In this document: positions 2-19,737 of the stretch, piece after piece | Layout: each line of letters begins with the position of its first letter | Numbering within the stretch: position 1 is the first letter of the stretch | Position numbers and translations under genes: made by a program | The notes under the pieces: model-generated | What the model was told of the DNA's origin: nothing | The model's database searches: none | Seen by the model: the letters and a program-made list of their open reading frames with translations, nothing else | IMG/VR virus record: IMGVR_UViG_2562617133_000007 | Reading direction: 5' to 3' (one strand) | DNA length: 30,411 nucleotides | Source: a virus | Taxonomy: Duplodnaviria > Heunggongvirae > Uroviricota > Caudoviricetes

Positions 2-2884
2 TCGGCGGCGTCATCGGCATCATCTGCGTCTGCTTCAAAAGATGAGGCGACCAGACAGGCGTCAGCAGCGAAGGGCAGTGCCACGACGGCATCCACGAAA
101 GCAACAGAGGCGGCAGGCAGTGCGACGGCAGCATCTCAGAGCAAAACTGCTGCTGAATCCGCTGCGACCCGTGCGGAAGCTGCTGCTGATCGTGCTGAAG
201 AGATTGCCGGTGCAGTTGCGATGGAAGACGCAAGCCTTACAACTAAAGGTGTTGTGAAACTTAGCAGTGCTGTCGACAGCACCAGTGAATCGCTGGCCGC
301 AACGCCAAAAGCAGTTAAAGCAGCCAATGACAATGCGAATAGCAGGGTGCCATCTAACCGAAAAGTTAACGGTAAAGCACTGACTGCGGATATCACATTA
401 ACGCCGAAAGATATTGGTACTTTAAATTCAGTAACGATGTCTTTCTCTGGCGGGGCAGGGTGGTTCAAACTGGCTACGGTTACCATGCCACAAGCGAGTT
501 CCATCGTTTACATCGCATTGATTGGTGGCGCTGGTTACAACGTCGGCTCCCCACATCAGGCAGGCATTTCAGAACTGGTTCTACGAGCAGGCAATGGAAA
601 CCCCAAAGGGATTACAGGTGCTTTGTGGAAGCGTACAGCTGTCGGATTAACGAATTTCGCCTGGATCAACACATCCGGCGATACATATGATATTTACGTT
701 GAGATTGGCAATTATGCGACTCGTGTAAATATCCATTGGGATTGTACTGCAAATGCGACAGTTTCTATTTATACCTCGCCAACATATTCAGCGAGTAAGC
801 CTTCCAGCGTTACCGATGGTGTTGTTTATACGATGTATAGCTCACATCAGAAACCTACACCATCAGATATTGGAGCACTGCCAACAACCGGAGGAACAGT
901 TTCAGGTCCGTTGTCTGTTACAGGTGGATTAACTGGTTCATTGAATGGTAATGCAAGTACAGCCACGAAATTGCAGACGGCAAGATCTATCGGTGGAGTT
1001 GTTTTCGACGGTTCTGCAAATATTAACCTTCCAGGTGTAAACACTACGGGTAATCAGAACACCACTGGTAATGCTGCAACTGCTACAAAACTTCAGACGG
1101 CAAGAACTATCGGCGGCGTGAGCTTTGATGGTACTGCGAATATTAATTTGCCAGGTGTTAATACGACTGGTAATCAGAATACAACGGGCAACGCGGCTAC
1201 TGCTACGAAGTTGCAGACTGCGCGTACTATCAATGGGGTGTCGTTTGACGGCTCGGCAAATATTTCCTTGTCGCCAGCAAATATAGGTTGCCCGGCATCT
1301 CCTACTGGTTGGTTAACTACAGGAAGTAATGGCGGAGCAATAACAACAGCACAGTTAGTGACGTTATTGCAAAATAATGGAGCATTTAACACAAAGTCAT
1401 GGATTGCTCGATGTGCGTGGGCCTATGCCAATAGTGCAACCATACCAAATAGTGAAACTGGTTGTGGCGTTATTCCATTAGCAGGAGCTGTTATAGAGGT
1501 ATTTAATAACGGTAGTAGCTCAAACAATTATACGATCCGTATAACAACGGCCACAACGGCGAGTGTCTCTGGTGCTCTCACTAATGCGGAGTTTATCTAT
1601 GTATTTAACGGGACGAGCTATTCACCAGGATGGCGCAGAGCGTATAACACTAAAAACAAGCCTACTGCGGCTGATGTCGGAGCTTTACCACTATCTGGAG
1701 GAGCGTTAACTGGCGGATTAACGTCTTCTGGTGAGATCGTTTCAAAATATGCAAATGGTTTCCGCATTGCTTACGGTAGCTTTGGGTTCTTTATCCGTAA
1801 TGATGGATCGAACACATATTTCATGCTAACAGCATCAGGAGACACATTAGGTTCATGGAACGGTTTGCGACCTATTACAATTAATAATACCAGCGGTGCT
1901 GTGTCCATTGGTAATGGACTAAATGTTACTGGTGGCGTAAATGGTAGTTTGAACGGTAATGCTTCAACAGCTACGAAGTTGCAAACTGCTAGAAAAATAA
2001 GCGGCGTGTCTTTTGATGGTTCTGCTGATATAACACTAACAGCTGCAAATGTATCTGCTTTTGCTCGACGCGCTACTGGAACTTATGCCGATGCTAGTGG
2101 TGCGGTCCCGTGGAATGCCGAATCAGGTGCGTATAATGTTACACGCTCCGGGGATTCTTATATCGTTGCAAATTTTTATATAGGCGTAGGTAGTTGTCGG
2201 ACTCTCCAAATCCGAGCGCATTATAAAAATGGTGGATTGTATTACCGTTCATCACGTGATGGCTATGGGTTCGAAGAGGACTGGACTCAGATATATACTA
2301 AAAAAGACAGCATTCCAGGTGTGAATGCAGATGGGAACCAGAACACTACTGGTAATGCCGCAACCGCCACAAAATTGCAGACAGCAAGGAAAATTGCTGG
2401 TGTGGCGTTTGATGGCTCTGCCGATATAACTTTGACTGCGGCTAACCTTAATGCTTACACGAAAACAGAGGTAACAAACCTTCTAAGTTCCTATGTGAAG
2501 AGCAGTGCTCTTCCAAGTATGACTGTGCGAACTTCCTCTGTTTCAGGTGGGGATATGGGCATGAGCTTGTCCGCATTCATTAGCCACCTAAAATCAAATG
2601 GGGCGTTTAGCAAAAGTTATTGGATTGGCTTTGGCGATGCTATGGGATTCAATGCTGGCAGTATCAACAATATAACGGGATTTGGTGCTGTAGAATTAGC
2701 AGAATCTATAATCGAAGTTTTTAATCTACCTAACGGTGATTATACAATTCGTTTAACGACGTCACACAAAGCTGACTATGGTGGGATTACAAACGCAATC
2801 CTCGTTTATCACTACCGTAGTAATAGAAGTCCGTCAGGTCAATGGCTGAAATTTGCAGGTACTGTTGGGGCAACAAGTAACTGA
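2..2884 (+). CDS. Tail fibre protein, 5'-truncated by the window edge
   Basis: Frame 2 is open from position 2 to the stop at 2884 with no stop before the Met at 221, so the gene begins upstream. N-terminal Ala/Ser/Thr/Lys-rich stretch typical of fibre shafts. Five copies of the motif NTTGNAATATKLQTAR.IGGV.FDGSA.I and DIGALP..GG..TG motifs, as in phage tail-fibre repeat families. Confidence 0.85.
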   Translation, partial: SAASSASSASASKDEATRQASAAKGSATTASTKATEAAGSATAASQSKTAAESAATRAEAAADRAEEIAGAVAMEDASLTTKGVVKLSSAVDSTSESLAATPKAVKAANDNANSRVPSNRKVNGKALTADITLTPKDIGTLNSVTMSFSGGAGWFKLATVTMPQASSIVYIALIGGAGYNVGSPHQAGISELVLRAGNGNPKGITGALWKRTAVGLTNFAWINTSGDTYDIYVEIGNYATRVNIHWDCTANATVSIYTSPTYSASKPSSVTDGVVYTMYSSHQKPTPSDIGALPTTGGTVSGPLSVTGGLTGSLNGNASTATKLQTARSIGGVVFDGSANINLPGVNTTGNQNTTGNAATATKLQTARTIGGVSFDGTANINLPGVNTTGNQNTTGNAATATKLQTARTINGVSFDGSANISLSPANIGCPASPTGWLTTGSNGGAITTAQLVTLLQNNGAFNTKSWIARCAWAYANSATIPNSETGCGVIPLAGAVIEVFNNGSSSNNYTIRITTATTASVSGALTNAEFIYVFNGTSYSPGWRRAYNTKNKPTAADVGALPLSGGALTGGLTSSGEIVSKYANGFRIAYGSFGFFIRNDGSNTYFMLTASGDTLGSWNGLRPITINNTSGAVSIGNGLNVTGGVNGSLNGNASTATKLQTARKISGVSFDGSADITLTAANVSAFARRATGTYADASGAVPWNAESGAYNVTRSGDSYIVANFYIGVGSCRTLQIRAHYKNGGLYYRSSRDGYGFEEDWTQIYTKKDSIPGVNADGNQNTTGNAATATKLQTARKIAGVAFDGSADITLTAANLNAYTKTEVTNLLSSYVKSSALPSMTVRTSSVSGGDMGMSLSAFISHLKSNGAFSKSYWIGFGDAMGFNAGSINNITGFGAVELAESIIEVFNLPNGDYTIRLTTSHKADYGGITNAILVYHYRSNRSPSGQWLKFAGTVGATSN
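941..1270 (+). repeat. Tandem in-frame ~120-bp repeat units inside the tail-fibre gene
   Basis: Units starting near 950, 1070 and 1190 each encode ...NASTATKLQTAR.IGGV.FDGSANINLPGVNTTGNQNTTG. Diverged extra copies near 1936-2040 and 2352-2450. Confidence 0.8.
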
Positions 2885-17527: not shown

Positions 17528-18261
17528 TTCGTTGAGACGCGACTGTTTGAACTTAAATACAAGTGCAAACGAAGAAGTCTATCTGGCAGTAGCCTAATAA
17601 GCCAAACACCAGCGAGGTCAGTTTCCAGCCTCGTTACCGAAATGGGACACACTGAGCGAGTGTGATTGCAGAACGCAGGAGAGGGCATGATACGGCACCA
17701 CCCATGCCCTCTCCGATGAAGTAACAGAATGGGCGGTCGGTATATTTCCAACTCCATATCACTCCCGGATTCTTAGCCACTGACCGCCCATCCTGTTACG
17801 TCATTTTGTTCAATTATGTCGTTTATACTGGGTTAAAAAGCGGCGACGTAGCCCGGCTGGTATGGTTAGCCAGCACACAACGTTGAGGCCATTACATTTT
17901 TATCAATTCTAAGGTTCTATTCACAGAGATACTGGCGAACGTTGATATGTAACATGTTGGGCAAACATTCAATCGGGGTAGTGGCCTCAACGTTGTGAAG
18001 ACAGGATTGTTGTGTAGGTTTAACCACTGTTGCCATTGGTGCCTGTTTTCACAACAAATGATTCCATACACCGCATTATGTAAATTACAAAGTAGGTGCT
18101 GTCCTCAGAAACATCATCTACTTAAAGATTTTGCCTTCTATTGAGCGAAGTCGAAAACGTCTGGCACTAACGAAAAGTGCAAGTAGCGGTGCGTTTATTG
18201 GCAAAAACTAACACCGCCGCGATTGGCACTGCTGAGTAATAAATACTGGCAGTGCTGAATT

Positions 18262-18336
18262 GATGGTGTAGCTCAGCGGTAGAGCAGTTGGCTGTTAACC
18301 AACTGGTCGGTGGTTCGAATCCACCCACCATCGCCA
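18262..18336 (+). tRNA. tRNA-Asn (anticodon GTT)
   Basis: Hand-folded cloverleaf: acceptor GATGGTG/CACCATC, D stem GCTC/GAGC, anticodon stem GTTGG/CCAAC with loop CTGTTAA, T arm GGTGG-TTCGAAT-CCACC, encoded CCA. Confidence 0.85.
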
Positions 18337-18341
18337 ATTTA

Positions 18342-18428
18342 GGGGAGTTAGTCCGTAGAGGTAGCGGTGTAGACTGTAAATCTACTGTCATTGCGACTCG
18401 GGTGGTTCGACTCCATCACTCCCCACCA
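18342..18428 (+). tRNA. tRNA-Tyr (anticodon GTA), type II with long variable arm
   Basis: Acceptor GGGGAGT/ACTCCCC; anticodon stem GTAGA/TCTAC with loop CTGTAAA; T loop TTCGACT; encoded CCA. The D arm folds atypically by hand. Confidence 0.7.
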
Positions 18429-18432
18429 AATT

Positions 18433-18508
18433 GCCGGTTTAGCTCAGTTGGTAGAGCAGTCGCTTTGTAAGCAAATGGCCAGCGGTTCAAGTCCGTTAAC
18501 CGGCACCA
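18433..18508 (+). tRNA. tRNA-Thr-like (anticodon TGT) with a weak anticodon stem
   Basis: Acceptor GCCGGTT/AACCGGC; D arm GCTC-AGTTGGTA-GAGC; T arm AGCGG-TTCAAGT-CCGTT; CCA encoded. The anticodon stem GTCGC/GCAAA pairs at only 3 of 5 positions. Confidence 0.55.
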
Positions 18509-18802
18509 ACATAATATTGAGAACATTGGCGTAACGGGTTCATATCCCAATTTATGAATATAATGTTGCGTTGCAGCGTGACAACCTGTGTTCTCAACAT
18601 TGTGGTGAATGCACAGGCTGATGTGCGACGTAGAAGCAAGCGGATGAACTGCCTGAAGGCCGCTAACGTAGGCAATGCCGGAGATCAGCACCGGCCATCA
18701 CAATTTGGCTCTCTTGCAACAGCATAACGCTGAAATACGTCCAACCTGGTGCGGTCTGATCACCCGCCGTTAGCTCCACGAAACGGAGCACACAACACAA
18801 TT

Positions 18803-18889
18803 GGAGAGTAGGGAGCATGGTGCTCAAGCGGTCTTGAAAACCGTCCCATTGTGCAAACGATGATGGTTCGATTCCATTACTCTCCGCCA
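18803..18889 (+). tRNA. tRNA-Ser (anticodon TGA), type II
   Basis: Acceptor GGAGAGT/ACTCTCC; anticodon stem GCGGT/ACCGT with loop CTTGAAA; long variable arm; T arm GATGG-TTCGATT-CCATT; CCA encoded. Confidence 0.65.
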
Positions 18890-18890
18890 G

Positions 18891-18970
18891 ACACAGCGTT
18901 GAGCGGTTTGGCCTTTTAATCAACCAGATTAAGACTCCGCTAACATAAACCAGACCGCTCAACGCTGTGA
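18891..18970. repeat. Long inverted repeat immediately 3' of tRNA-Ser
   Basis: ACAGCGTTGAGCGGT (18893-18907) and ACCGCTCAACGCTGT (18954-18968) are perfect reverse complements; pairing extends to about 20 bp around a ~40-nt loop. Confidence 0.6.
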
Positions 18971-19043
18971 TAGACAATTACGGCAGACGTTCTTAACCAT
19001 AGCTTGCTAACATCCTAGCAACACTTTTTTCAGCGCAAAATTC

Positions 19044-19066
19044 AAAGGGGCTTCGGCCCCTTTTTT
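19044..19066 (+). terminator. Rho-independent terminator
   Basis: AAAGGGGC-TTCG-GCCCCTTTTTT: GC stem, tetraloop and T-run. Confidence 0.75.
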
Positions 19067-19182
19067 GATTTGTTGACACTTAGTTATATTCACGTATCGT
19101 TTTATCGCTTTGATCCGAGGCAGCGTTAGACTGCCTTCATGTTCCTGATTAGATCGCAGCAGTTAAACATGGAGACAAATTA

Positions 19183-19737
19183 ATGAAGAAGTGCCATCTC
19201 AATATTTTCGCATCTCTAATAATTGCGTTAACACTAACAGGGTGTAACGAATCTGAAATAGATGAATTAACGTTAATAGGCAAAGATAAAAGTGAACTTG
19301 AACAAAATTATAAAGCCCAATTCAAGAAGCTAACACAAAATGTTGAAGTGTTTATTCTTCAAGATAAAAATAGTCCGACTGAAAAAGAACCGCATACGAA
19401 TGGCAACCTGATCGACGGAAAAGTCGAAATGTCATTAACCAGTAATGTTGGTAAGTATACATTCATCCAGATAAGTGAAATGCTGACAAAGGAGTACGGA
19501 AAACCCGTTGCTACAAAAGATCGTGTTTTTAACAGAGAAGCAGTATCTGGCATGGACTGTATTGAAACTAAAACTTGTGGAGCTGGTAAATATTATGAAA
19601 TCTTTCGAGGGAAGGATAGATTGATTATGGTGTCAAACGGTGCCGGTCTTTTACACGAAAAGGAAGGTGTAACACTACTCACCATCACCGATAAACAATT
19701 TAAATTTTCTCGTTTAGAAGAAGATAAAATAAAATAA
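19183..19737 (+). CDS. Lipoprotein of unknown function (AT-rich cargo)
   Basis: Lipobox LTGC in MKKCHLNIFASLIIALTLTGC; 184 aa; GGAGA RBS; AT-rich relative to the backbone. Confidence 0.7.
   Translation: MKKCHLNIFASLIIALTLTGCNESEIDELTLIGKDKSELEQNYKAQFKKLTQNVEVFILQDKNSPTEKEPHTNGNLIDGKVEMSLTSNVGKYTFIQISEMLTKEYGKPVATKDRVFNREAVSGMDCIETKTCGAGKYYEIFRGKDRLIMVSNGAGLLHEKEGVTLLTITDKQFKFSRLEEDKIK

What the first reader, a model, noticed from the sequence alone, without database searches (positions are those of the whole stretch)
18262..18889. tRNA cluster with atypical members and a 294-nt structured gap
Seen in sequence: tRNA-Asn(GTT) folds canonically, but the Thr-like gene has only 3 of 5 anticodon-stem pairs, and the Tyr and Ser genes fold with unusual D arms in my hand-folds. 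Between the Thr-like and Ser genes lies a 294-nt spacer (18509-18802) with its own inverted repeats (TTGAGAACA at 18517 versus TGTTCTCAA at 18589; GCTCC-ACGAAAC-GGAGC near 18770). Inference: the atypical genes may be degenerate, or functional phage tRNAs with unusual structure, and the spacer may hold a further RNA.
Basis: partly seen in the sequence, partly recalled or inferred. Interest (0 to 1): 0.5.

Follow-up and report, generated by a model that had tools for sequence, protein, structure and literature searches.

The report
Phage tRNAs interleaved with tRNA-like RNAs
The "gap" in this phage-plasmid tRNA cluster holds conserved, tRNA-shaped non-coding RNA modules that also sit unannotated in P1, lambda and hundreds of other enterobacterial phages, next to phage tRNAs whose odd anticodon stems match published nuclease-resistant designs.

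Summary
Four tRNA genes, all with encoded CCA, lie at the stated coordinates. Thr(UGU) has only 3 of 5 anticodon-stem pairs. Tyr and Ser have non-standard D arms. The two inverted repeats exist.

The tRNAs look functional, not decayed. The Thr changes (A43, U28-A42, G39) and Asn C39 fall on positions reported to give resistance to the P2-OLD and PARIS-AriB tRNA nucleases. Tyr is the retron-Eco7 target. ACA and UCA are also this element's preferred Thr and Ser codons.

The 294-nt spacer is three modules of a large family that is unannotated in the records examined:
- **D1** (18516-18598) is a 13-bp stem with a variable insert.
- **D2** (18599-18704) is a tRNA-like three-way junction. Its two hairpin loops form a covarying kissing helix, and a hypervariable insert replaces the anticodon arm.
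- **C** (18720-18789) is three hairpins.

Covariation is strong and no ORF is conserved. Relatives occur in P1, P7, lambda's late leader, 1530 of 5426 complete E. coli genomes and at least 120 viral contig stretches. One D2 variant scores as tRNA. Another is Rfam STnc100, which is reported as structurally related to PasD sRNAs.

Function is inferred, not shown: co-transcribed, excised small RNAs built on a tRNA scaffold. An SsrA-like tag template lies 700 nt upstream.

The parts
18262..18336 (+). tRNA-Asn(GUU). Canonical fold. Position 39 is C where the paper gives E. coli tRNA-Asn as U36AAUC|C41.
   Evidence: AriB site taken from PMC12409363.
18342..18428 (+). tRNA-Tyr(GUA). Type II, with a 4-nt linker before a 3-bp D stem.
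   Evidence: Nearly identical in three related replicons.
18433..18508 (+). tRNA-Thr(UGU) with a weakened anticodon stem: G27.A43, U28-A42, C29.A41, and G39.
   Evidence: Resistance determinants from PMC12445682.
18516..18598 (+). Module D1. A 13-bp stem (18516-18528 with 18586-18598) encloses a 57-nt insert.
18599..18704 (+). Module D2, a tRNA-like three-way junction. Closing stem 18599-18607 with 18696-18704; hairpin X 18611-18626; hypervariable insert 18627-18676; hairpin Y 18677-18695. Loops X (GCUGA) and Y (UCAGC) can kiss.
18720..18789 (+). Module C, three hairpins at 18720-18732, 18751-18767 and 18773-18789. In other loci it lies directly 5' of a D1; here tRNA-Ser follows instead.
18803..18889 (+). 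tRNA-Ser(UGA) with A8, a compact D arm and a 6-bp variable arm. The consensus fold has an 8-bp acceptor stem and a 4-bp T stem.
18892..18969 (+). 20-bp inverted repeat directly after tRNA-Ser.
19044..19066 (+). Intrinsic-terminator-like hairpin with a T run. Probable end of the RNA operon.
17882..18054 (+). Second, diverged D1-D2 unit: GTTGAGGCCATT...AGTGGCCTCAAC, then TTGTGAA...TTCACAA.
17525..17600 (+). Module M, a tmRNA-like 5' region plus tag reading frame. 17565-17600 encodes ANEEVYLAVA followed by two stops.
17490..17518 (+). Weak promoter-like TTTACT-17 nt-TAAGAT, at the position where the swi2 and KlebP_265 loci have TTGACA-17-TAGATT in front of M. This is inference only.
   Evidence: Read. 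Below the threshold of the scan.

Best explanation
Window 17.5-19.07 kb is a non-coding RNA operon of a ~110-kb phage-plasmid. It carries four phage tRNAs interleaved with modular tRNA-derived RNAs.

(1) The tRNAs are working replacement tRNAs. Thr(UGU), Asn(GUU) and Tyr(GUA) are the isoacceptors destroyed by P2-OLD, PARIS-AriB and retron-Eco7 PtuAB. The "atypical" Thr anticodon stem (27:43 unpaired, U28-A42, G39) and Asn C39 remove the motifs those nucleases use. Thr(UGU) and Ser(UGA) also read ACA and UCA, the codons this element prefers.

(2) The 294-nt spacer encodes modules D1, D2 and C on the + strand. D2 folds like a tRNA without an anticodon arm. An acceptor-like stem stacks on a T-arm-like hairpin, and a loop-loop kissing helix replaces the D-loop/T-loop elbow. 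A hypervariable insert sits where the anticodon arm would be.

I infer that the modules are co-transcribed with the tRNAs. I also infer that the host tRNA-processing machinery (RNase P, RNase E, 3' exonucleases) cuts them out as stable small RNAs. The conserved scaffold would give processing and stability. The variable insert would carry specificity, as a base-pairing seed or a bait, as reported for the relatives STnc100 and PasD.

Shown here: the structure, family membership, strand, and co-orientation with tRNAs. Inferred: transcription, processing and trans-acting function.
For: tRNAs:
- Published determinants: phage tRNA-Thr resists P2-OLD through U43A plus CNG changes such as C28U/G42A. 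AriB cuts U36AAUC|A41, and a U39 change abolishes cleavage. PtuAB degrades tRNA-Tyr.
- ACA is 33% of Thr codons and UCA 24% of Ser codons in the window's 19 long ORFs.

Spacer:
- It is 81-85% identical to the stretch downstream of trnT in P1-like replicons. It occurs in 533 of 5426 E. coli genomes with no annotated feature under the match in the 60 hits listed, and P1 itself has only minus-strand ORFs there.
- The scaffold is conserved while the 50 nt between X and Y is replaced outright.
- At least 120 viral stretches carry the X motif. There are 100 distinct D2 copies with inserts from 6 to about 150 nt.
- A structure-only descriptor search recovers the family: 53 of 55 hits.
- D2 scaffold: 94.7% of cells paired, 10 of 23 pairs with double changes, 0 of 500 shuffles as good, slid controls 26-52%. 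This includes the kissing helix.
- D1 stem: 90% paired, 10 of 13 pairs compensatory, with a conserved U.G wobble.
- G.U outnumbers A.C by 53 to 24.
- The minimum-energy fold of D2 alone reproduces the model.
- A D2 variant scores 40 bits as tRNA with the same acceptor stem, UGUGGUG/CACCACA.
- 10 of 64 D1 inserts carry a canonical T arm, against 0.07 expected.
- 43 of 157 D2 sites have a tRNA within 600 nt, and all 43 are co-oriented.
- STnc100 has the same architecture and occupies the same slot.
- PasD is reported as an abundant Hfq-bound sRNA next to Q and as structurally homologous to STnc100.
Against: - There is no expression or processing data for this locus.
- The window's D2 is not followed by a terminator, unlike many lambdoid copies and the Pas sRNAs. 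It also gave no STnc100 hit in the window at E<=10.
- No CCA follows D2 here. Only about a quarter of copies have ACC after the stem.
- The window's insert is not notably structured, z = +0.56. It has no complementary site within the 30-kb window.
- Anticodon-loop-like hairpins are only weakly enriched in inserts: 9 observed against 3.0 expected.
- No strong promoter was found upstream.
- Nuclease resistance of these particular tRNAs is extrapolated from other phage tRNAs.
- P1's own tRNA-Thr allele keeps both CNG motifs.
Confidence: 0.6

Rival explanations
1. The spacer modules are cis-acting transcript elements rather than trans-acting RNAs. They would act as processing punctuation, nuclease or Rho insulators, or antitermination-type structures that ensure maturation and stability of the neighbouring tRNAs or of late mRNAs.
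For: - Units sit directly after tR'-type terminators in lambdoid late leaders, and between tRNAs.
- A minimal D2 with a 6-nt insert exists, so the scaffold alone is maintained.
- CACAAC linkers recur at every junction.
Against: - Scaffold sequence conservation goes well beyond what pairing requires.
- Hypervariable inserts of up to about 150 nt are kept.
- The relatives STnc100 and PasD are reported as discrete Hfq-associated sRNAs with targets.
Confidence: 0.2
2. The spacer is evolutionary debris: decayed tRNA genes and recombination scars carried along with the tRNA cassettes, with no function of their own.
For: - The modules are tRNA-derived.
- The arrays are shuffled cassette-wise. Tyr, Ser, C and whole units are present or absent between P1, P7, Cyrano, CMS-2020a and the window.
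- The window's D1 has two mismatches relative to its relatives.
Against: - Compensatory changes occur in four helices, including a tertiary kissing helix.
- The scaffold is near-identical across unrelated phage types and about 20 enterobacterial genera.
- It is present in 1530 of 5426 E. coli genomes.
Confidence: 0.08
3. The spacer encodes small proteins: homologues of P1 Plp and Upl on the minus strand, or the 57-aa ORF at 18554-18727 on the plus strand.
For: P1 annotates plp and upl here. ORFs of 57-104 aa exist in the window.
Against: - plp overlaps trnT in antisense.
- Frames are broken differently in the window and in the P1 group, and the central 50 nt is replaced with a length change that is not a multiple of three.
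- The 60 listed RefSeq E. coli hits carry no CDS there.
- The conserved U.G pairs and the covariation fit RNA.
Confidence: 0.03
4. The tRNAs serve only to match the element's AT-rich codon usage. On this view the unusual anticodon stem, D arms and A8 are neutral drift, not anti-defence adaptations.
For: - ACA runs at 18.8 per thousand and UCA at 17.3 per thousand. They are the top Thr and Ser codons in the window, which has 43.8% GC. From my own knowledge, E. coli uses both at roughly 7 per thousand.
- P1's Thr allele keeps an intact CNG-bearing stem.
Against: - Asn and Tyr have a single isoacceptor each, so codon choice gives little reason to carry them.
- Asn, Thr and Tyr coincide with the known targets of PARIS, OLD and retron-Eco7.
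- The Thr and Asn changes fall on the experimentally defined determinants.
Confidence: 0.3

Closest known systems
STnc100 (Rfam RF02076) and the PasD prophage sRNAs
   Same: STnc100 model positions 31-147 have the same plan as D2. There is a closing stem (caUGGUG/CACCAug), an AAU linker, a 5-bp hairpin with a 6-nt loop, a variable middle, and a 5-bp hairpin abutting the 3' closing strand. STnc100-type copies in P1 and P7 follow the D1 3' strand just as D2 does. PasD is reported as structurally homologous to STnc100 and lies next to Q.
   Different: The window's D2 gave no STnc100 hit at E<=10. It uses different hairpin sequences with a covarying X/Y kissing helix. It has no terminator after it. 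It sits inside a tRNA array of a phage-plasmid rather than in a lambdoid late leader. In the sources I read, D1, C, the tRNA derivation and the copies in lambda and P1 are not described.
Nuclease-resistant phage tRNAs (T5-type tRNA-Lys/Thr/Asn against PARIS; phage tRNA-Thr6 and Thr21 against P2-OLD; T5 tRNA-Tyr against retron-Eco7)
   Same: The same isoacceptors are involved: Thr UGU, Asn GUU, Tyr GUA. The same kinds of change are present: 27:43 unpaired with A43, C28U/G42A, and an altered U39.
   Different: Resistance was not tested for these sequences. The window's Thr has an extra C29.A41 mismatch. No tRNA-Lys(UUU) is present.
tRNA itself, and tRNA-scaffold or tRNA-like RNAs processed by RNase P (P1/P7 C4 RNA; phage T4 species 1 and 2 RNAs; the last two from my own knowledge)
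   Same: The 5' and 3' ends pair in an acceptor-like stem that stacks on a T-arm-like hairpin. The modules are co-located and co-oriented with tRNA genes. One D2 variant keeps genuine D and T arms.
   Different: There is no anticodon arm, no encoded CCA in the window copy, and no Rfam C4 or tRNA hit in the spacer. The elbow is made by Watson-Crick loop-loop pairing.
allo-tRNA and tRNA-Sec-like 8/4 tRNAs (for tRNA-Ser; from my own knowledge of Mukai et al. 2017)
   Same: Long variable arm, compact D arm, A8 able to pair with U at the start of the T stem, and a near-threshold tRNA-Sec score.
   Different: The anticodon is an ordinary Ser UGA. The 8th acceptor pair never varies in 8 homologues, so 8/4 against 7/5 is unresolved.
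tmRNA (for the upstream M module)
   Same: A ten-codon tag frame of the form ANxxxxLxVA/AA with no start codon in most copies, an A-rich leader, double stops and pseudoknot-like hairpins after it. There are weak hits to tmRNA_permuted and beta_tmRNA.
   Different: No tRNA-like domain with G3:U70 and CCA was found. Scores are below the Rfam gathering thresholds. ARAGORN finds no tmRNA.

Membership tests
Bacterial tRNA (Rfam RF00005 / ARAGORN) | Covariance-model score at or above the gathering score of 29 bits | tested here: met
   Asn 75.5, Thr 63.8 and Tyr 41.6 bits. Ser is the exception: it has no RF00005 hit and only tRNA-Sec at 44.8 bits, below 47.
Bacterial tRNA (Rfam RF00005 / ARAGORN) | Cloverleaf with a 7-nt anticodon loop and an encoded CCA | tested here: met
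   ARAGORN folds all four, and each ends in CCA.
Bacterial tRNA (Rfam RF00005 / ARAGORN) | Five-pair anticodon stem | tested here: not met
   Thr has 3 of 5 pairs. The other three tRNAs are intact.
P2-OLD-resistant phage tRNA-Thr(UGU) | Shortened anticodon stem (27:43 unpaired, A43) together with an altered CNG motif | tested here: met
   G27.A43 is unpaired. U28-A42 replaces C28-G42, so neither C28-N-G30 nor C40-N-G42 is present.
P2-OLD-resistant phage tRNA-Thr(UGU) | Resistance to cleavage and rescue of OLD toxicity | not testable with these tools
   Needs a cleavage assay or a rescue assay.
PARIS/AriB-resistant phage tRNAs | Loss of the U36AAU39 recognition sequence | tested here: met
   Thr reads U36AAG39 and Asn reads U36AAC39. 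Resistance itself was not tested.
STnc100 (RF02076) / PasD | Rfam gathering score of 47 bits | tested here: not met
   No STnc100 hit in window 18000-19200 at E<=10. The P1 sister unit reaches 33.4 bits.
STnc100 (RF02076) / PasD | Closing stem, AAU linker, 5' hairpin, variable region, 3' hairpin stacked on the closing stem | tested here: met
STnc100 (RF02076) / PasD | Intrinsic terminator at the 3' end and Hfq association | tested here: not met
   There is no terminator between 18704 and 19044. Hfq binding is not testable here.
8/4 allo-tRNA-like fold (tRNA-Ser) | 8-bp acceptor stem with a 4-bp T stem, supported by covariation | tested here: inconclusive
   RNAalifold predicts 8/4, but A8-U is invariant in 8 homologues.
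tmRNA (upstream module M) | Tag reading frame without a start codon, ending in a hydrophobic Ala-rich C-terminus | tested here: met
   Eleven tag variants across 49 loci, with synonymous changes.
tmRNA (upstream module M) | tRNA-like domain with G3:U70, a T arm and CCA; detection by Rfam or ARAGORN | tested here: not met
   Rfam scores are 16-26 bits, below 47. ARAGORN -m finds nothing credible.

The most novel reading that the evidence does not exclude
The D1, D2 and C modules together with the upstream M module (an SsrA-like tag template with no tRNA-like domain of its own) could form a phage-borne, multi-piece system acting on trans-translation. D2-type RNAs resemble a tmRNA tRNA-like domain: acceptor and T arm, no anticodon arm. 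They might bind SmpB or partner with M. The phage could then retarget or block ribosome rescue during lytic growth. This would be present in P1 and many other enterobacterial phages (lambda carries D1-D2; M was not examined there) and would have been overlooked so far.
Probability: 0.1. Interest if true: 0.9.

Novelty: new variant of a known kind. Interest (0 to 1): 0.62.

Why it matters
Three points would matter if this holds.

1. A structured, tRNA-derived RNA family with a covarying tertiary contact and a hypervariable cargo site lies unannotated in the two best-studied temperate phages, lambda (right after tR') and P1 (ban operon). It is also in about 28% of complete E. coli genomes. It links the orphan sRNAs STnc100 and PasD to tRNA ancestry and to a larger modular array. 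It also gives a natural counterpart of the engineered "tRNA scaffold" for expressing RNAs.

2. It explains the odd tRNA-Thr as a likely counter-measure to Toprim tRNA nucleases. It suggests that P1-like and SSU5-like phage-plasmids carry alternative alleles tuned to different defences.

3. P1's plp and upl genes are probably mis-annotations.

The SsrA-like tag module opens a testable link between phages and ribosome rescue.

Tried and rejected
- **Extra tRNA in the spacer.** ARAGORN at relaxed thresholds, with introns and in mitochondrial mode finds none.
- **Known RNA families in the spacer.** Rfam at gathering score and at E<=10 gives only chance-level hits, sR9 and rydB.
- **Coding.** No ORF is conserved between the window and the P1 group.
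- **Antisense target in cis.** There are no complementary k-mers above chance in the 30-kb window.
- **Anticodon-stem-loop decoys in the inserts.** Only weak enrichment, 9 observed against 3.0 +/- 1.6 expected.
- **Encoded CCA after D2.** ACC is somewhat enriched across copies but CCA is not general, and it is absent in the window.
- **Identity with PasA-C sRNAs.** Rejected. Those are described as sRNAs with a 3' intrinsic terminator (PasA 84 nt), and PasA/PasC lie between the esterase and holin genes.
- **Literature search for the motif strings.** Nothing found.
- **Searches for P1 upl/plp and lambda late-leader RNA papers.** Nothing relevant.
- **A complete tmRNA around module M.** Not found.
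- **ARAGORN's "tmRNA" in swi2.** It reuses the tRNA-Met 3' half and is taken as spurious.
- **Promoter scan.** No strong sigma-70 site upstream.

Full report
**Observation.** ARAGORN places tRNA-Asn(gtt), Tyr(gta), Thr(tgt) and Ser(tga) at exactly the coordinates given, each with an encoded CCA. Rfam scores Asn at 75.5, Thr at 63.8 and Tyr at 41.6 bits. Ser misses the tRNA model and only reaches tRNA-Sec at 44.8 bits, below that family's 47. The Thr anticodon stem has two mismatches, G27.A43 and C29.A41. Tyr needs two extra bases before its D stem. Ser has A8 and a compact D arm. The spacer is 294 nt and both inverted repeats are present.

**Where the window comes from.** The region is 99.7% identical to plasmid pTIC and to an E. 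coli plasmid. It is closely related to "Escherichia phage CMS-2020a" and "Cyrano", which are phage-plasmids of about 110 kb.

**The tRNAs.** The Asn-(type II tRNA)-Thr trio is shared with P1-like plasmids and with phage N4. The Ser(UGA) gene has homologues in rV5-like, T5-like and T4-like Klebsiella phages and in Pseudomonas and Acinetobacter phages.
- Two Thr alleles circulate. The P1 type has an intact CCUGC/GCAGG stem. The N4/CMS type is GUCGC/GCGAA, and the window carries one further G41A change on it.
- Published work shows that P2-OLD cuts E. coli tRNA-Thr(UGU) at paired CNG motifs in the anticodon stem. Resistant phage tRNA-Thr combine U43A, which leaves 27:43 unpaired, with CNG changes such as C28U/G42A (PMC12445682).
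- PARIS AriB cuts tRNA-Lys(UUU), Thr(UGU) and Asn(GUU) at U36AAUC|A41, and changing U39 abolishes cleavage (PMC12409363).
- Retron-Eco7 PtuAB degrades tRNA-Tyr, and phage tRNA-Tyr rescues this (PMC11555353).
- The window's Thr has A43, U28-A42 and G39, and its Asn has C39. So the "defects" coincide with defined resistance determinants. This is inference; no cleavage was tested.
- Codon supply also fits. ACA (33% of Thr codons) and UCA (24% of Ser codons) are the preferred codons in 19 window ORFs.
- For Ser, RNAalifold on eight homologues gives an 8-bp acceptor stem, a 4-bp T stem and a 6-bp variable arm with compensatory changes. The eighth acceptor pair never varies, so 8/4 against 7/5 stays open.

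**The spacer is conserved and modular.** It is 81-85% identical to the stretch downstream of trnT in P1-like replicons (immediately after trnT in CMS-2020a, after a further ~200-nt unit in P1 itself). There P1 annotates only the minus-strand ORFs plp and upl, and plp overlaps trnT. It occurs in 533 of 5426 complete E. coli genomes, with no annotated feature under the match in the 60 hits listed. Pieces of it recur separately in three settings:
- P7 and D6;
- lambdoid Cronobacter and Klebsiella prophages, between Q and the holin gene;
- siphoviruses, upstream of tRNA clusters.

Aligning the window with five relatives shows near-invariant flanks around a 50-nt segment that is replaced outright.

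**Anatomy.** Reading the loci gave a recurring unit. The consensus is CACAACAG, then D1, then D2. D1 is a 13-bp stem, GGTAAGAGCATTG with CAGTGCTCTTWCC, around a 26-124-nt insert. D2 runs TTGTGGTG-AAT-hairpin X-insert-hairpin Y-CACCACAA. Module C lies directly 5' of D1 in other loci. In the window the coordinates are as follows:
- D1 is 18516-18598.
- D2 is 18599-18704.
- C is 18720-18789 and is followed by tRNA-Ser instead of another D1.
- A second, diverged D1-D2 unit lies at 17882-18054.

**Evidence that this is RNA structure on the + strand.**
It gave 100 distinct D2 copies with inserts from 6 to about 150 nt.
- A structure-only descriptor search over 1.18 Mb returned 55 unique hits, 53 of them family members.
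- On 76 distinct D2 scaffolds, 94.7% of cells pair and 10 of 23 pairs show double changes. None of 500 shuffles did as well, and slid controls fell to 26-52%.
- The X-loop/Y-loop helix (GCUGA/UCAGC) covaries, for example GUCGA/UCGAC and ACUGA/UCAGU.
- The D1 stem is 90% paired, with 10 of 13 pairs compensatory and a conserved U.G wobble.
- G.U exceeds A.C by 53 to 24.
- D2 folded on its own gives the same three-way junction.
- No ORF is conserved.

**tRNA ancestry.**
- Anchoring on D1 shows that D2 always begins TTGTGG and ends CCACAA, but its interior comes in several types. Some types have genuine D and T arms.
- Rfam scores one of these (L151) at 40 bits as a tRNA whose anticodon arm is replaced by 68 nt. 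Its acceptor stem, UGUGGUG/CACCACA, is the family's closing stem.
- Ten of 64 D1 inserts carry a canonical T arm, nearly always abutting the 3' strand, against 0.07 expected.
- Of 157 D2 sites, 43 have a tRNA within 600 nt, and all are co-oriented. The baseline is 6.9%.

**Distribution.**
- One E. coli-type unit is present in 1530 of 5426 genomes, with no annotated feature under the match in the 25 hits listed.
- Lambda carries D1 at about 44,791-44,861, immediately after tR', followed by a D2 variant.
- A one-genome-per-species scan found 44 stretches, mostly in about 20 Enterobacterales genera.

**Relation to what is known.** No Rfam family reaches threshold on the units. Rfam STnc100 hits the next P1 unit at 33.4 bits, and its model has the D2 architecture in the D2 slot. 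A 2026 preprint reports PasD sRNAs (Hfq RIL-seq, northern-validated, next to Q) as structurally homologous to STnc100, with different seeds and targets (PMC13192938). The window's D2 is therefore best filed as a divergent relative of STnc100 and PasD. I did not find D1, C, the kissing helix, the tRNA origin or the lambda and P1 copies described anywhere.

**Mechanism.** This part is inferred. The array is probably read from a weak promoter-like site at 17490-17518 through to the terminator at 19044-19066. The tRNA-like shape of D2, and of some D1 copies, would let the tRNA-processing machinery excise them. The scaffold would provide stability, and the variable insert would provide specificity. 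Against this, the window's insert shows no special structure and has no target within the window. Its D2 also lacks a terminator and a CCA.

**Side observation.** Window 17565-17600 encodes ANEEVYLAVA followed by two stops, an SsrA-like tag frame. The same module is in P1 (tag ANDDLMMVAA) and in 49 of 303 held loci. It shows synonymous variation, usually has no start codon, and is followed by covarying pseudoknot-like hairpins. It often occupies the D2 slot after D1. No tRNA-like domain accompanies it. A 2014 census lists phage ssrA only in mycobacteriophages, Bacillus phage G and DS6A (PMC4131195).

Noticed in passing
window 17525-17600 (tag frame 17565-17600); also L001 1729 = phage P1 at about 68,944: An SsrA/tmRNA-like tag template. 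The window encodes ANEEVYLAVA** and P1 encodes ANDDLMMVAA*, with nine other variants. Most copies have no start codon and are followed by two covarying pseudoknot-like hairpins. It is present in 49 of 303 held loci and often sits in the D2 slot after D1. Rfam gives only sub-threshold tmRNA_permuted and beta_tmRNA hits, and no tRNA-like domain was found.
   Followed up: partly
window 17882-18054: A second, diverged D1-D2 unit upstream of the tRNAs: GTTGAGGCCATT...AGTGGCCTCAAC, then TTGTGAA...TTCACAA. It is preceded by a CCGG...GTAA...CCGG-type hairpin and a CACACAAC linker.
   Followed up: partly
L257 (phage lambda) 901-1053 = lambda at about 44,787-44,940: Lambda's late leader, directly after tR', contains a D1 that is 97.6% identical to the consensus. 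A D2 variant (TTGTGCTG...CAGCACAA) and a terminator-like hairpin follow. The record annotates only orf-64 there.
   Followed up: partly
L001 (P1) 2257-2826, minus strand: The P1 genes plp and upl overlap trnT and the conserved RNA modules in antisense. Their frames are not conserved in relatives, and the RefSeq records examined carry no CDS there. They are probably not genes.
   Followed up: partly
window 18892-18969: A perfect 20-bp inverted repeat (CACAGCGTTGAGCGGTTTGG ... CCAGACCGCTCAACGCTGTG) lies immediately after tRNA-Ser. Its function is unknown.
   Followed up: no
L013 1037-1113 (Salmonella plasmid pMFDS1011716): A tRNA-Arg(tct) has the same acceptor and T arms as the cluster's tRNA-Asn but a different anticodon arm and D loop. 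This looks like an apparent anticodon-arm swap within the cassette.
   Followed up: no
window 18803-18889 and L251-L256: Phage tRNA-Ser(UGA) genes from rV5-like, T5-like and T4-like Klebsiella phages and from Pseudomonas and Acinetobacter phages all share A8 and a compact D arm. The consensus fold is 8-bp acceptor with 4-bp T stem. Rfam's tRNA model misses the window copy.
   Followed up: partly
L001 2865-2984 (P1), L006 ~1921-2045 (P7): The units after module C in P1 and P7 are STnc100-type (33.4 bits in P1). STnc100-like RNAs therefore also exist in the P1 ban operon, not only in lambdoid prophages.
   Followed up: partly
L136 2609-2797 (E. coli UTI89 prophage): C4 antisense RNA (83.6 bits) and isrK (67 bits) lie side by side within the annotated Rha-family regulatory gene, about 2.3 kb from a D1-D2 unit that sits downstream of the cI-like repressor gene.
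   Followed up: no
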